Below, piece after piece: positions 18,001-45,000 of a stretch of DNA of 64,000 bases. Source of the DNA: Trypanosoma brucei (lineage: Eukaryota); contig CP000071.1 of NCBI GenBank assembly GCA_000002445.1, positions 2,176,001 to 2,240,000 on the forward strand, read 5' to 3'. Position numbers: made by a program. How positions within the stretch are numbered: position 1 is the first letter of the stretch; every line of letters begins with the position of its first letter.

Positions 18001-21000
18001 CACGCTCATCGGATGAAATAAGGGTTGAACCGCTTATACTACAAATATACCTTCAACAGTCAACACCGAAGAGCAGGGCCTCCAAGGTATTCTAAACAGT
18101 ACATGCACTCCAATAATTATGTTCCGTCGAGGCATTTAACAATTCGCTTAGTACCACGAAAAAGTACACGGTGCCAACAGAAACGTTTAAGCCAAAACAC
18201 GCGCAAACAACAGTGTTGGTACGCAATTTTCCCCTTAACATTATTACTTTCCCCCTACCTCATATTTTCTATATCCATCAAGTGTGTAACCACAAAGACA
18301 CTTAACCACCAAAAGAAAATGACCAGCATCAATGCCCAACCACCCAACTCAGCCACTTATTCTCAGGATGATCATGGCAGCGCAGAAGTTGTGAACCTAA
18401 ATGCTGAGGTGGAACGCCCACAGCCAGAGGAACGGAAAGATGGTGGTGGTTGCTTTGCCAGGGTGAGTCTATTTATGGCAACTATCATCCCACCGGGAGG
18501 TATCGCCGCAAGTGCCTTCAACATTGCATCTTCAACCATTGGTGCCGGCATTGTAGGCTTGCCTTCTGCCGCCAACAGCAGTGGGCTTGTGATGGCGATG
18601 ATTTATCTTATTATCATTACGGCAATGTCTGTGTTTACAATGCACAATCTCGCAGTGGTTGCTGATAAATCAAGTGCTCGCACGTTCGAGGAAATAACAG
18701 GCAAGTTGCTTGGGCGTGGAGCTTCATATTGTCTCGCTGGAGTTCGTGCTTTCCATGGCTTCAGTGGATGTGTGGCATATGTGATTTCTGTGGGTGATAT
18801 CCTGAGTGCTACCTTAAAGGGTACCAATGCTCCGGATTTCCTGAAGCAGAAGTCAGGCAACCACCTGCTGACATCCCTCATGTGGTTATGCTTCATGCTT
18901 CCACTTGTAATACCTCGGCACATTGACTCCCTACGTCACGTTTCAACCATTGCCGTCAGTTTCATTATCTACCTCGTCATCGTTATTGTAGTGCACTCAT
19001 GCATGAATGGGTTACCGGAAAATATCAAGAACGTCAGTGTGGGAAAGGATGACAATGCTGAGATTATATTGTTTAACAGTGGGAACAGAGCCATCGAAGG
19101 TCTTGGAGTATTCATGTTCGCTTATGTGTGCCAAGTCGTCGCAGTGGAGATATACATGGACATGACAGACCGTTCTCCGCGAAGATTTGTCCTTGCATCT
19201 GCAATTGCATTGGGTATCTGCTTCGCATTGTACGTAATGACAGCCTTCTTTGGTTACATGGACTTTGGTCGTGCTGTTACTGGCTCTGTGCTTCTGATGT
19301 ATGACCCAGTGAATGAACCTGCAATTATGGTCGGTTTCGTTGGTGTGCTCGTCAAGCTATGTGCGTCATATGCATTGCTTGGAATGGCTTGTCGCAACGG
19401 CTTGTACAGCATCGTGGGATGGGATGCCGACAAGGTTGCCTTCTGGAAGCACTGCATTGCCGTTGTTACTCTCTCTGTCGTCATGTTGTTGTGTGGCCTA
19501 TTCATCCCGAATATCAACACAGTTCTTGGGTTCGCTGGTTCCATCTCTGGTGGATCGCTGGGTTTCCTATTTCCCGCCTTATTGGTGATGTATTCCGGTG
19601 GCTTTACGTGGCAGAAGGTGGGTCCGTTTTATTATCTTACTACATACGCTGTATTACTTACAGGTGTTATTGCCATTGTATTTGGTACGGGAGCGACCAT
19701 CTGGGGAACTGCGACTGGTTAATTGGTTTATGTGTAGCATATCGGAATGTATCGTTTTAACGGGTTTATCGAGGCATGAACAGTACTATAAGTGCTGTAA
19801 AATAATATTATCATCACTATTATAGCAATGACACTGAGCGTAAACGTTACTAATAACACGGAAGTGAATGACTAGGCGACTTCTCTTTCCGCTTCACTAC
19901 TCAAAAATATAACAACACATATTTTGTTTTTCTGCTGTTTCTGACAGTATAGTCCCCAACCCCAACTGAATCGCTTCAACCCAGGTCGGTTGATGTTTTT
20001 TCCCTAGTTGGCAACGCGCTCCAACATATCTTCACTTAGTCTATGCGTGGCATCTGTAGAGTGGCTGAAACGCCTCATTGAACATCGAAATATAATAATT
20101 CTTTCGTAACTTCAATTATCTGCAAAGTGCCACAATAACTACACAGCAATAAGGGCGTCTCGATCCATCATAAAAATGGGTATTATATGCCAATACCCTC
20201 AATGGCAACAATCAAAGAAAATAACATATCGATGACGAACCGATTCCTCCCCGTCTGCATTGTGCCGGTGCCTCCTTCAACTCTACTTTATATAATCTTC
20301 TTCCCCTATCCTTTACCCCTTGTTTCTGGTCTCCAAAAGTATGCGAAAGTACACAAATAAAATAGACTGGTGTCGCAGCTATCCTGGCACAACTATTATG
20401 CTTGAGTGCACAGGCTGAGAGATAATTTTGACAAATGACTTTAGGTTTCACATGTGTAAGCAGTGGCAGTATCAGATTTGCTAACACAGTGGAGCATGAG
20501 CATGCAAGTGATTCCAATAATGTAGATCACGCGGAAAGGCTAATTGCTCTGTTATTAACTGCATTTGGTAATTGTACTAGCACCATTATGTGCTCGGAGT
20601 GAGCGTTCCATAGTACTATGGCTGTGGCAAGTTTCAGAGTGTGGGATGAGTTAACAACGATGCCAAGAACGCTGGCCGCTATTCCCTAAGATGCGTCTGC
20701 ACTGCCACCGTAGCAAGTAACGTCTCTAGGCAGTTAACCCTTATGTGTATGTGTAACACTCCGATGCTACTTCTCCACTCGCTAAGCCGTTTTGTTCCCC
20801 TCAACATTCTTACTTTCCCCTTACCTCATATTTTCTATATCCATCAAGTGTGTAACCACAAAGACACTTAACCACCAAAAGAAAATGATCAGCATCAATG
20901 CCCAACCACCCAACTCAGCCACTTATCCTCGGGATGATCATGGCAGCGCAGAAGCTGGGCAAGCGAATGCTGAGGTGGAACGCCCACAGACAAAAAAACA

Positions 21001-42000: not shown

Positions 42001-45000
42001 CGTGTACAGTGTCGCAGTGGAGTGGTAACGATAGAAGTGGGGCGTCACTCGTCCTTCTCCATACATGCCCCGTGTCGAGCAAATATCATTGGGCATATGC
42101 TCTCTAAAGCCCTATTGGGCCCGTGAGATGTTTTCCTCCCCTTTTATTATGTTTTAATGCGTACGTATTATCATTATTGGATTTACTCCTCTTCCGGTAT
42201 GCTCACTCGAAAACGTGTACCTCCGGCCCAACCAGAGGGAGATAGTGTAAAGACGCAGGGATACAGGCTGTGGTGCAATTATCCATTACTGTCTCATTTA
42301 ATATTTTATTGATATAGCCAATCTTTTCAGCGGTAGCAGCCTTTTTGTGTGTGTTTTAACTCCTTTCGGAGCGACGTCAGTAATAAGGGAGAAAAGCGTC
42401 GATGTCTCTTGGGTTTTGGTTTTTTTTCATTGCTTAGTGAGTCTCCAAGTAAGTCACTCTTCGAGTTGCACACCACTCGGGTGCATATGAATGGTGGCGC
42501 TTCTCGCTCCGTTAACTTCACTGTTTTTTGTTGTTGTAACTTAATCCCACTAACACAGCACCCGACTAGGGATGTTCCGGGAAGCTATAAAACGTGCGTG
42601 CATATTGTCAGAGAAGGATCATCTGAGCATGCTGATCGTTGTTCCCCTAGGATTCGTTCTTGATCTCCTTCTTTATCTACTCTCCCTTTGCTTTCCTTCC
42701 TCCTCATATTCTTTACGCTCTCTGTTGCAGCACAAATGTTAGCGATGGGTGACCCGGACATCCCTTAGTTCCTTCTTTTCAGCAGGTTACCTGTTGGCGT
42801 TTGATGATTGTACCAATATCGGAGCTACAAGCAAAGTTGGCAGTATGCATATATGTTACAAATGCATGTACCCGTTGAACACCACTGTGGTCTGTTTCCC
42901 ATTGCGTCTCCAGGGCTGATATGTATGCATTGTGTTTGCCCTGAATCATGAACGCGGCCGCGCAACTCCTGGAAAATGGTGTCTGGTACGTTCTTTGTTT
43001 TGTTCCTTGCCGCGGCTGCATGACAGTAGACAGTTATTAACTGGATGTACAAATACACAGAGCCTTCCTTCATAAGGTTGAAAACTAAGGATAGTCATGT
43101 GTTCTAACAATCACAAGTGGATGTTTCTTCGGCACTTCACGCCGAACCGAATGCATCTACTCTCGTCTCTTGTAATGTCTCTTGGACTCGGAAGATGGCA
43201 CCCGTCAGCTCATGGGGTGTCGCGACAATGGGGAAGAGGAAGGGTTAACGCACGCACTACTGTTCGTGATGCACGAGAGCCAAATAATCTGCTGCTGACG
43301 AAGGGCGCATCGGTCTAATGGGTGTACCCCATTACCATTACTGTTTAGCGCCGTCCTATGTGTTGGCTCTGAAAGCAGTAAGTCGAATCTGCGCGAAGTA
43401 CTGAAGTTTTACTGCTGCGCTCTGGAGCCGCTGCACTACATGCGGAGGGGACGTATCCTGAATGTGCGCCTCAGGTAGGGAGGGAAGTAGACCTTTGTTG
43501 CTCTTTCCCCTCGGCGAATAGGCGAAATCAAGTGGAAGGGAGGCTGTGCGAAGATTTCCCACTAAAGCCCCGAAAGTGGGAGCGGTTTTGTGGACTTCAT
43601 TTTTCTGATGCTTGTATAAGTTCATAAATGTTTTGAGTGTGTCGGTGTTTTATCAATCCCTATGTGCGCTTGAATGGGCGTATTTGTGGTTCGATCGATC
43701 CTGTGGATCGGCAGGGCCTAACGACTTTTGGCGGTAAGTTTCTTTCTCCCCCTTGTCTTTTGCCTTGTTCCTCCCCCAGTAGCATGTATCCCTGAATAAA
43801 TCAAAGTGGCGCACACAACGTTCTTTCTTTCGTCTGCGTGCGTAGGCGTGCAGAAGTACATCTCTATCTAGTGGTGTGGGTTGACCTCCCATTTATTGTT
43901 CGTTAAGGCGTCATAGTTCTTTGTTTTCCTTTCTTTTTCTTTCCATCGTAAAAAACCACTGGTTCCCGAACTCAAATGGGAGGAGTGAAGTTCGCCGTGC
44001 TGGCACTGCTTGTATTTGCCTTGCTGTATGTCGTCACGCGCGTTTTGTTGACACGTCACCGATCAAATCCGCGAAACGACGGACGCCAACAGCACACGGA
44101 GCCTAGTTGGGACATCACCAACGGAGCCAATATTCCTGTGGTTCAGCCAATGGAAAGCACACCACCACTGTCAGAACCAGGCGTGTTGCTGGCTATTCCT
44201 TTAGCATGGCACCGGGAGATCCCTCTGTCATCGAGACCAAGTAGAAGTGACACGGGAAATAGGCCAGTAAATCCCTTAGAACGCGCACCGGACGGACCGG
44301 AGGTCGTCTACTCTCATGCAAAGTACATCCCCCGAGCCTGAAGTGCGTCTTGACAGGAGCTAAAGATAGATTCGGATGAAGGGTGCAAAAAAAAAAAACG
44401 GCGACAGCTGCAGGAGGCGTGCGGAACGCATTTAGTTGCATAAGTCAGTGTGGAGTGGGAAGTGCGGGTGAATAGGTCGTAGCAACTTGTTGCCGTATGG
44501 AACACATCGTGCTGTCCTTTTGAGGGAGACTGCGTATGCAATAAACTTTGCCCACCCTAAGCTTTGGGCCGATCTCACATTGTTGCACGGCGTGTTTCCG
44601 CTTCCTTTTAGCACAGGTATGTTATATGTGTATCCTAAAGGTGTAGGATATGTATATTTTAATAGTATCTTTGTTGCAGTTGAATGTTTATTTGTGACAT
44701 TATTATTTTGTATTATTATCATACACTTTGTCTGCGCAAATCCGCTACAGATGAAGGACTTTTTAGAGGTTGGAGAGGAAAAATAATAGTAACGATGACA
44801 ATAATGACATTCAATGGGGGGGTGGTCCACGTCACTGGGTGGGTTGACTGCCACTGCTGATGACCTTCATGATACAATACTCTTAATGCTGGTGTGTCGG
44901 TGGTCGTTGGCCGCATAGGCTTTTGCAGCACTGGCTCTGTCACTGCTAACATGGTTTCCCTCTTCTTCCTCGAACACGTATGCTCGCTGCCGCGGACTAC

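What the first reader, a model, noticed from the sequence alone, without database searches (positions are those of the whole stretch)
18319..42028. Amino-acid transporter array is a patchwork of gene-conversion tracts across two subfamilies
There are seven full copies, about 2.5-2.8 kb apart. Copies 1, 6 and 7 are subfamily B (markers 'MSVFTMHNLAVVADK', 'LMYDPVNEPAIMVG', end 'WGT.TG'). Copies 2-5 are subfamily A (markers 'TIFSIYALGVAAERTNIRTY', 'LQYDPVNYPA', end 'WAVTVG'). The cytosolic N-tails are assembled from shared blocks that do not respect subfamily. 'INAQPPNSA' versus 'IKTKSPTSV': copy 5 (A) shares the second form with copy 6 (B). 'EAGQANAEVERPQ' is shared by copies 2 and 5. 'EVVNLNAEVERPQ' is shared by copies 1, 3 and 4. 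'EVVNPNPEAPLSQNELKN' is shared by copies 6 and 7. Copy 7 carries the A-type 'IPKITTV' inside a B body. The 3' flanks also come in two types (A: 'ttagcgtaggttctgcgcacagg'; B: 'ttggtttatgtgtagcatatcgg'). Copies 3 and 4 are about 99% identical, which suggests a very recent duplication. This is a locus undergoing frequent partial gene conversion and unequal crossing-over. It generates transporter variants that differ mainly in the N-terminal tail and in a few substrate-path helices.
Basis: seen in the sequence. Interest (0 to 1): 0.55.

Follow-up and report, generated by a model that had tools for sequence, protein, structure and literature searches.

The report
Known mosaic trypanosome amino-acid transporter array
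This is the AAT7 amino-acid transporter gene array on chromosome 8 of Trypanosoma brucei; its copies really are patchworks made by gene conversion and unequal recombination, but this was already published for this same sequence in 2007 and 2010.

Summary
Window 18319-42028 holds nine full AAAP-type amino-acid transporter genes and two 3' gene fragments. The interpretation also holds. A PHI test gives z = -17. Cross-subfamily tracts are longer than in any of 3000 permutations. Silent-site identity ranges from 21/21 to 2/8 along one gene pair. Of 144 differences between positional orthologues in three strains, 127 copy a base already present in a paralogue (14 expected by chance). Copy number also differs between strains.

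The window is the T. b. brucei TREU927 reference itself (copies 2-7 match Tb927.8.7610-7670 proteins exactly). Jackson 2007 ran GENECONV and SISCAN on this array. Jackson et al. 2010 ran PHI, LRT and GARD on it together with the T. b. gambiense copies.

My additions are minor: a 76/76-identical tract shared between the distant C lineage and copies 6/7, microhomology junctions for the two pseudogene fragments, and the fact that the swapped N-tail blocks carry published phosphosites. Verdict: real, well read, already known, low interest.

The parts
18319..19722 (+). The 5' ~240 nt are of the copy 2-5 type.
   Evidence: In the c1/c3/c7 triplet, 18/18 informative sites at CDS 80-195 match c3, against 43/228 elsewhere.
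20885..22288 (+). Published as a high-affinity proline transporter.
   Evidence: Exact protein match to a TREU927 entry. Pfam Aa_trans E = 2.5e-42. Function from PMC8094907.
23380..24783 (+). Copy 3 = Tb927.8.7620 (AAT7-B).
   Evidence: The unit is 99.63% identical to the copy 4 unit.
26105..27508 (+). Copy 4 = Tb927.8.7630 (AAT7-B).
   Evidence: T. equiperdum has only one unit in place of copies 3 and 4.
28830..30233 (+). Copy 5 = Tb927.8.7640 (AAT7-B). It holds two short foreign tracts: CDS 15-35 (window 28844-28864) of copy 6 type and CDS 71-81 (28900-28910) of copy 2 type.
   Evidence: The T. equiperdum orthologue lacks both tracts.
31555..32955 (+). Copy 6 = Tb927.8.7650 (AAT7-A).
   Evidence: In T. 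equiperdum the orthologue has an AAT7-B-type 3' end and no following fragment.
32988..33305 (+). Gene fragment 1 = Tb927.8.7660 pseudogene. It covers CDS ~1087-1404 and is itself chimeric: copy 6 type up to ~1215, then copy 2 type. It is joined to 32 nt of B-type flank at an imperfect 13-nt microhomology.
34397..35797 (+). Copy 7 = Tb927.8.7670 (AAT7-A). It holds an AAT7-B-type patch at CDS 1199-1209 (window 35595-35605; the IPKITTV motif).
   Evidence: The patch is also present in the T. b. gambiense and T. equiperdum orthologues.
35368..35443 (+). Tract in copy 7 that is 76/76 identical to copy 9 (41596-41671). The same tract lies in copy 6 at 32526-32601. The genes are otherwise about 60% identical.
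36523..37986 (+). Copy 8 = Tb927.8.7680 (AAT7-C).
39325..39837 (+). Gene fragment 2 = Tb927.8.7690 pseudogene. It covers CDS 889-1401 of a copy 7-like gene (97.3% identical) and marks the left edge of the second copy of a 4042-bp tandem duplication.
40565..42028 (+). Copy 9 = Tb927.8.7700 (AAT7-C), 99.0% identical to copy 8.
35285..43368 (+). Two tandem copies of a 4042-bp segment: the 3' part of an AAT7-A gene, a 725-bp spacer, a C gene and ~1340 bp of flank. The copies are 98.4-99.3% identical. The junction reads TTGGCT|ATCTGC.
20461..20884 (+). Example of the 424-bp block directly upstream of the ATG. Copies 2-7 share it at 98-99.5% regardless of subfamily. Upstream of copy 1 only 90 bp are shared (18229-18318), which marks the array edge.

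Best explanation
The region is the AAT7 tandem array of AAAP-family amino-acid transporter genes on chromosome 8 of Trypanosoma brucei brucei TREU927. It lies inside a one-strand polycistronic unit downstream of a GRESAG4 adenylate cyclase gene.

The array grew by tandem duplication. Its units stay partly alike through homologous recombination between misaligned units. Short non-reciprocal gene-conversion tracts of about 10-250 nt copy patches between paralogues, including between subfamilies and occasionally with the distant C lineage. Unequal crossing-over changes copy number and makes hybrid genes. Two microhomology-mediated illegitimate junctions created the two pseudogene fragments.

A 424-647-bp block upstream of each ATG is nearly identical in all units. 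I infer, but have not shown, that conversion tracts starting in this block run into the 5' end of the CDS. This would explain why the N-terminal tail has no fixed differences between subfamilies and behaves as a set of interchangeable cassettes, while the membrane domain keeps two distinct types.

Shown here: the mosaic structure, its statistical significance, the silent-site heterogeneity, the inter-strain differences that copy paralogues, the copy-number differences and the junction sequences. Inferred: the recombination machinery, the direction of each event and any adaptive value.
For: Identity:
- Proteins of copies 2-7 match T. b. brucei TREU927 entries AAZ13524-13529 exactly.
- Gene order and content match the published locus: 11 genes, two of them pseudogenes, in subgroups A, B and C (PMC8094907).
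- Pfam Aa_trans hits.

Mosaicism within the window:
- The site-pattern map shows clustered incompatible partitions.
- PHI observed 0.067 against 0.122 +/- 0.003 in permutations, 0/1000.
- The longest matching runs for every cross-subfamily pair exceed all 3000 permutations.
- The clearest cross-subfamily triplet breakpoint tests give 0/500.
- Four-fold sites for c3 vs c7 are 21/21 identical in codons 1-60, 3/10 in codons 271-300 and 2/8 in codons 451-467. For c7 vs c8 they are 12/13 in codons 301-330.
- c6 and c7 are 76/76 identical to c9 over one tract.

Between strains:
- 127 of 144 differences at positional orthologues match a TREU927 paralogue, against 14 expected.
- The differences cluster at CDS 15-35, 71-81, 546-560 and 1238-1404.
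- T. equiperdum has one unit where TREU927 has copies 3 and 4, and it lacks the 7660 fragment.
- T. b. gambiense has a hybrid of copy 3/4 and copy 6.

Literature: GENECONV and SISCAN events in AAT7Tb (PMC1810246). PHI p < 0.001, 14 LRT breakpoints and at least 5 GARD breakpoints for array 80, Tb927.8.7600 (PMC2854126).
Against: - The direction and timing of individual events cannot be fixed without more strains.
- The T. b. gambiense DAL972 assembly (Sanger reads) may have collapsed repeats. Its five-copy array and its hybrid gene could then be partly assembly artefacts.
- The frameshifts and the stop codon in the T. equiperdum copies 1 and 2 may be PacBio errors.
- Within copies 2-5 alone, the PHI test shows no spatial clustering of incompatibilities (27 informative sites).
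- The amino-acid block GDILSA.LKGTNAPDFLK.KSGNRLL is also conserved in transporters at other loci. Part of that block's similarity therefore reflects constraint rather than exchange.
Confidence: 0.93

Rival explanations
1. The shared blocks are ancestral. The copies diverged along one tree, and the blocks identical across subfamilies are simply under strong purifying selection, with no exchange.
For: Some shared blocks are conserved at protein level in paralogues at other loci too, for example GDILSAILKGTNAPDFLKEKSGNRLL in AAT2/AAT4-like proteins.
Against: - Selection on protein sequence does not hold four-fold-degenerate sites at 100% identity while neighbouring blocks are near random.
- 53 sites support a partition incompatible with the main one, and many of them are clustered.
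- PHI and the triplet tests reject one tree.
- Orthologous copies in other strains carry different cassettes.
Confidence: 0.03
2. The mosaics are assembly artefacts, that is, chimeric consensus sequences from collapsed or misjoined near-identical repeats.
For: Tandem arrays are hard to assemble, as Jackson 2007 notes. The five-copy T. b. gambiense array may be collapsed.
Against: - The main mosaic features recur in independent assemblies of other strains. The c3-like 5' end of copy 1 is in T. b. gambiense and T. equiperdum. IPKITTV in copy 7 is in both. IKTKSPTSV in copy 6 is in T. equiperdum.
- An independently cloned cDNA-type entry, AATP1 (CAC86544), belongs to the same 90%-identity protein cluster as copies 2-5.
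- Haindrich et al. amplified these genes from genomic DNA.
Confidence: 0.03
3. The cassette pattern in the N-tail arose by repeated independent mutation under convergent or diversifying selection, not by copying.
For: The N-tail is the most variable part within subfamilies: 16 of 37 and 8 of 16 variable residues fall in 45 of 467 positions.
Against: The shared cassettes are identical at nucleotide level over 10-11 linked differences, for example CDS 15-35 in copies 5 and 6. The N-tails of other loci are unrelated, so there is no common pool of motifs to converge on.
Confidence: 0.01

Closest known systems
T. brucei AAT7 locus as described by Jackson 2007 (BMC Evol Biol 7:26, PMC1810246) and Jackson et al. 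2010 (PLoS NTD 4:e658, PMC2854126, Table 2, array 80)
   Same: It is the same locus and the same reference sequence. Both accounts have 11 genes, two distinct lineages (7.9 and 7.11 against the rest), partial gene conversion detected by GENECONV and SISCAN (for example tract 1-206, donor copy 3, recipient copy 1), a significant PHI test, multiple GARD and LRT breakpoints, and subspecies-specific recombinant copies.
   Different: Nothing essential differs. I add tract-level detail: a 76-nt tract identical between the C lineage and copies 6/7, against the published 19-bp event. I also add a comparison with a T. equiperdum long-read assembly, the microhomology junctions of the two pseudogenes, and the link to the shared upstream block.
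AAT7-A/B/C subgroups and AAT7-B proline/alanine transporters (Haindrich et al. 2021, J Biol Chem 296:100566, PMC8094907)
   Same: The grouping of the nine intact genes and two pseudogenes is the same. The paper also notes strain differences in architecture: Lister 427_2018 has three AAT7-B genes, as T. equiperdum does here.
Other variable tandem arrays in T. brucei (ISG65, GRESAG4, adenosine and hexose transporters), which are mosaics made by gene conversion
   Same: The process and the signatures are the same. 31 of 35 variable arrays show recombination (PMC2854126).
   Different: This array keeps two sequence types plus a distant third within one array, with exchange concentrated at the 5' end.

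Membership tests
AAAP (amino acid/auxin permease) transporters, Pfam Aa_trans PF01490 | Significant match to the Aa_trans profile over most of the protein | tested here: met
   Copy 2: E = 2.5e-42, residues 63-461. Copy 8: E = 1e-48. Both are above the gathering score.
AAAP (amino acid/auxin permease) transporters, Pfam Aa_trans PF01490 | About 11 transmembrane helices with a cytosolic hydrophilic N-terminal tail | tested here: inconclusive
   A crude Kyte-Doolittle scan finds about 9-10 hydrophobic segments after a hydrophilic tail of ~45 residues. No dedicated topology predictor was run. The 11-helix topology is stated in PMC13524880.
AAAP (amino acid/auxin permease) transporters, Pfam Aa_trans PF01490 | Demonstrated amino-acid transport | not testable with these tools
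   Published for Tb927.8.7610-7640: proline, alanine and cysteine uptake in yeast (PMC8094907). No such data for copies 1, 6, 7, 8 and 9 appeared in the passages I read.
T. brucei AAT7 locus (Tb927.8.7600-7700) | Exact identity to the annotated TREU927 proteins | tested here: met
   Copies 2-7 equal AAZ13524-13529 on the 2,481,190-bp contig. Copies 1, 8 and 9 were not found as exact sequences. For the C copies this is because the annotation uses another start codon (the 546-aa P0025 starts at MFKLLRI). For copy 1 the reason was not established.
T. brucei AAT7 locus (Tb927.8.7600-7700) | Published architecture: 11 genes in the order A, B, B, B, B, A, pseudogene, A, C, pseudogene, C | tested here: met
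   compared with PMC8094907.
Tandem array evolving by gene conversion and unequal crossing-over | Spatially clustered phylogenetic incompatibility (significant recombination tests) | tested here: met
Tandem array evolving by gene conversion and unequal crossing-over | Tracts identical at silent sites between otherwise diverged paralogues | tested here: met
Tandem array evolving by gene conversion and unequal crossing-over | Differences between orthologous copies of different strains that match paralogues, together with copy-number variation | tested here: met
   The possible assembly collapse applies to T. b. gambiense only.
Tandem array evolving by gene conversion and unequal crossing-over | Direct observation of conversion events (mutation-accumulation lines or marked copies) and dependence on the homologous recombination machinery | not testable with these tools
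   No experimental data were available here.

The most novel reading that the evidence does not exclude
The exchanged N-tail blocks may be regulatory cassettes. Phosphosites reported for AAT7 proteins map onto them. T6, S8 and T10 can exist only in the IKTKSPTSV form (copies 5 and 6). S34 exists only in the PNPEAPLSQNELKN form (copies 6 and 7). Gene conversion, seeded in the upstream block shared by all units, would then re-pair phospho-regulatory tails with transport bodies of different specificity or affinity. It would do so differently in each strain, giving strain-specific regulation of proline/alanine uptake.
Probability: 0.2. Interest if true: 0.4.

Novelty: already known. Interest (0 to 1): 0.15.

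Why it matters
AAT7-B transporters supply proline, the main fuel of the tsetse-stage parasite, so variation in this array bears on how the parasite adapts to nutrients. However, the mosaic nature of the array, its recombination breakpoints and its differences between subspecies have been in the literature since 2007-2010. The subgroup functions were addressed in 2021.

Tried and rejected
- I first took the window for T. b. gambiense, because the best hit is listed at 100% identity. The exact look-up showed it is T. b. brucei TREU927, and I corrected this in the notebook.
- I looked for ectopic donors of the N-tail cassettes in paralogous loci (AAT2, AAT4, AAT10 and AAT8-like proteins). Their N-tails are unrelated, so there is no sign of inter-locus exchange. 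This agrees with Jackson 2007.
- PHI on copies 2-5 alone was uninformative, with only 27 informative sites.
- The transporter gene at 54503-55906 is only 36-38% identical to the array copies and is not part of the array.
- I did not run structure prediction, the representative-protein search or RNA tools, because they would not bear on the question.
- GARD and RDP are not installed. I used PHI, run-length permutation and a MaxChi-type triplet scan instead. Published GARD results exist.
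Full report
**What is in the window.** All long ORFs between about 12 kb and 56 kb lie on the + strand, as expected for a trypanosomatid polycistronic unit. 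From 18319 to 42028 there are nine full-length transporter genes:
- c1 18319-19722
- c2 20885-22288
- c3 23380-24783
- c4 26105-27508
- c5 28830-30233
- c6 31555-32955
- c7 34397-35797
- c8 36523-37986
- c9 40565-42028

There are also two 3' gene fragments, at 32988-33305 and 39325-39837. Pfam assigns the proteins to Aa_trans, PF01490. A GRESAG4-type adenylate cyclase gene (12034-15903) lies upstream.

**Origin of the window.** An exact-sequence look-up shows that the proteins of c2-c7 are entries AAZ13524-13529 of Trypanosoma brucei brucei TREU927, on the 2.48-Mb chromosome 8 record. My first reading, T. b. gambiense, was wrong and was corrected. The order of genes and pseudogenes matches the published AAT7 locus, Tb927.8.7600-7700. 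In that scheme AAT7-A is 7600, 7650 and 7670. AAT7-B is 7610-7640. AAT7-C is 7680 and 7700. The pseudogenes are 7660 and 7690 (PMC8094907).

**Check of the observation.** Both flank strings are found directly after the stop codons named, and additionally after the two fragments. The CDS identities are:
- 96-99.7% within c2-5
- 97.2% for c6 vs c7
- 88-90% for c1 vs c6/c7
- about 80% between the two subfamilies
- about 60% to c8/c9, which are 99.0% alike

Copies 3 and 4 differ at 10 of 2725 positions over the whole unit.

**Is it a patchwork?** Among c1-c7, 379 of the 1471 alignment columns vary. 153 sites support {c1,c6,c7}|{c2-5}. 53 sites support the incompatible split {c6,c7}|{c1,c2-5}; many of these cluster at CDS 85-234, and the rest form smaller runs further along.
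- c5 with c6 at CDS 15-35 (10 sites)
- c2 with c5 at CDS 71-81
- c7 with c2-5 at CDS 1199-1209

The formal tests agree.
- PHI is 0.067 against 0.122 +/- 0.003 in permutations (z = -17, 0/1000).
- For every cross-subfamily pair, the longest run of matching polymorphic sites exceeds all 3000 column permutations.
- The clearest cross-subfamily triplet breakpoint scans give 0/500. For example, c1 is 18/18 c3-like at CDS 80-195 and 43/228 elsewhere. c5 is 0/10 c3-like at CDS 15-35 and 267/280 elsewhere.

Silent sites exclude selection on ancestral blocks. Four-fold-degenerate sites of c3 vs c7 are 21/21 identical in codons 1-60, but 3/10 in codons 271-300 and 2/8 in codons 451-467. Exchange also reaches the distant C lineage: c6 and c7 are 76/76 identical to c9 at 35368-35443 / 41596-41671, in genes that are otherwise about 60% identical.

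**Flanks and structural events.** The 424 bp upstream of each ATG of c2-c7 are 98-99.5% identical regardless of subfamily. This shared block extends to 647 bp for c2, c4, c5 and c6. Upstream of c1 only 90 bp are shared, which marks the array edge.

The 3' flanks come in four kinds:
- a B type of 342 bp, after c1, c7 and fragment 2
- an A type of 1091 bp, after c2 and fragment 1, 99.6% identical between the two
- a longer A' type of 1321 bp, after c3-5
- a C type

Fragment 1 (7660) starts 32 nt into a B-type flank, at an imperfect 13-nt microhomology (CGGAATGTATCGT against CGCAATGCACTGT). It is itself chimeric: c6 type, then c2 type. Fragment 2 (7690) is the left edge of the second copy of a 4042-bp tandem duplication, 35285-39324 and 39325-43368. 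Its junction reads TTGGCT|ATCTGC.

The N-tail (residues 1-45) contains none of the 51 fixed amino-acid differences between the subfamilies. It does contain 16 of the 37 positions that vary within c2-5, and 8 of the 16 that differ between c6 and c7. I infer that conversion tracts seeded in the shared upstream block run into the 5' CDS. That step is inference, not a result.

**Other strains.** I fetched the orthologous arrays from T. b. gambiense DAL972 (L001) and from the PacBio assembly of T. equiperdum (L002 and L003).

T. equiperdum is collinear with the window, apart from these differences:
- It has a single unit in place of c3 and c4.
- It lacks the 7660 fragment, and its c6 orthologue carries the AAT7-B-type 3' end.
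- Its c5 and c2 orthologues lack the IKTKSPTSV and EAGQANA cassettes.
- Two of its AAT7-B copies carry an AAT7-A-type patch at CDS 546-560.

T. b. gambiense has five genes in the array. One is a hybrid: c3/4 type to about CDS 800, then c6 type, with a c2-type patch at 1036-1170. This assembly may be collapsed.

Over eight positional orthologue pairs there are 144 differences. Of these, 127 are bases present in a TREU927 paralogue at the same column, where 14 are expected from random substitution (binomial P about 1e-107). This is the signature of recent, continuing conversion. Because the mosaic features recur in independent assemblies, an assembly artefact in TREU927 is unlikely.

**What is already known.**
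- Jackson 2007 analysed this same array with GENECONV and SISCAN. The paper reported five events, including tract 1-206 with donor copy 3 and recipient copy 1. It also described two sub-arrays evolving in concert and 'frequent exchange of sequence motifs' (PMC1810246).
- Jackson et al. 2010 compared the T. b. brucei and T. b. gambiense copies of array 80 (Tb927.8.7600). They found 10 against 5 copies, PHI p < 0.001, 14 LRT breakpoints, at least 5 GARD breakpoints and subspecies-specific recombinant isoforms (PMC2854126).
- Haindrich et al. 2021 defined subgroups A, B and C. They showed that 7610-7640 are plasma-membrane proline/alanine/cysteine transporters, with 7610 of high affinity and the others of low affinity. 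They also noted a different architecture in Lister 427_2018, which has three AAT7-B genes (PMC8094907).

**One point I did not find stated in the papers I read.** The phosphosites listed for AAT7 proteins (PMC13524880, Table 1) include T6, S8 and T10. These residues exist only in the IKTKSPTSV cassette. The list also includes S34, which exists only in the PNPEAPLSQNELKN cassette. The exchanged blocks therefore carry phosphorylated residues. Whether that matters for regulation is untested. For the related transporter AAT10.2, mutating the tail phosphosites left affinity, localisation and substrate-dependent regulation unchanged, though the non-phosphorylatable variant showed higher protein levels.

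**Verdict.** The finding is an accurate rediscovery of a published feature of a reference genome. Novelty: already known. Interest: low.

Noticed in passing
window 32956-33305: The Tb927.8.7660 'pseudogene' is a 318-bp 3' gene fragment joined to 32 nt of the copy 6 flank at an imperfect 13-nt microhomology. T. equiperdum lacks it, and there copy 6 simply carries the fragment's 3' end. The fragment therefore marks either an insertion or duplication in the TREU927 / T. b. gambiense lineage, or a deletion in T. equiperdum.
   Followed up: partly
window 35285-43368: A 4042-bp tandem segmental duplication made the second AAT7-C gene and the 7690 fragment. Its junction shows only 4-6 nt of microhomology (TTGGCT|ATCTGC). 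T. b. gambiense has a single C unit, which may reflect assembly collapse.
   Followed up: partly
window 12034-15903: A GRESAG4-type receptor adenylate cyclase gene lies directly upstream of the array (Pfam Guanylate_cyc plus periplasmic-binding-like domains). The array's left edge is 90 bp upstream of the copy 1 ATG.
   Followed up: partly
window 45274-45933 and 46999-47676: Two adjacent genes encode 219-aa and 225-aa proteins that are 43% identical to each other. Each has an N-terminal hydrophobic segment and no Pfam match. They look like an old tandem pair of hypothetical proteins.
   Followed up: no
window 54503-55906: A further Aa_trans-family transporter gene (467 aa) lies about 12 kb downstream. 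It is only 36-38% identical to the array copies, so it is a separate locus.
   Followed up: partly
L003 4941-6342 and 7506-8909 (T. equiperdum): The orthologues of copies 1 and 2 carry two 1-nt deletions and an in-frame stop (Y14*), respectively. No gene was called there. These are either real pseudogenisation in T. equiperdum or PacBio consensus errors.
   Followed up: no
window 1998-9903 and 52058-53251: Other genes in the window have these Pfam matches: a CorA-like Mg2+ transporter, a dihydrouridine synthase, a RING-variant domain protein and a TLC-domain protein. All are on the + strand.
   Followed up: no
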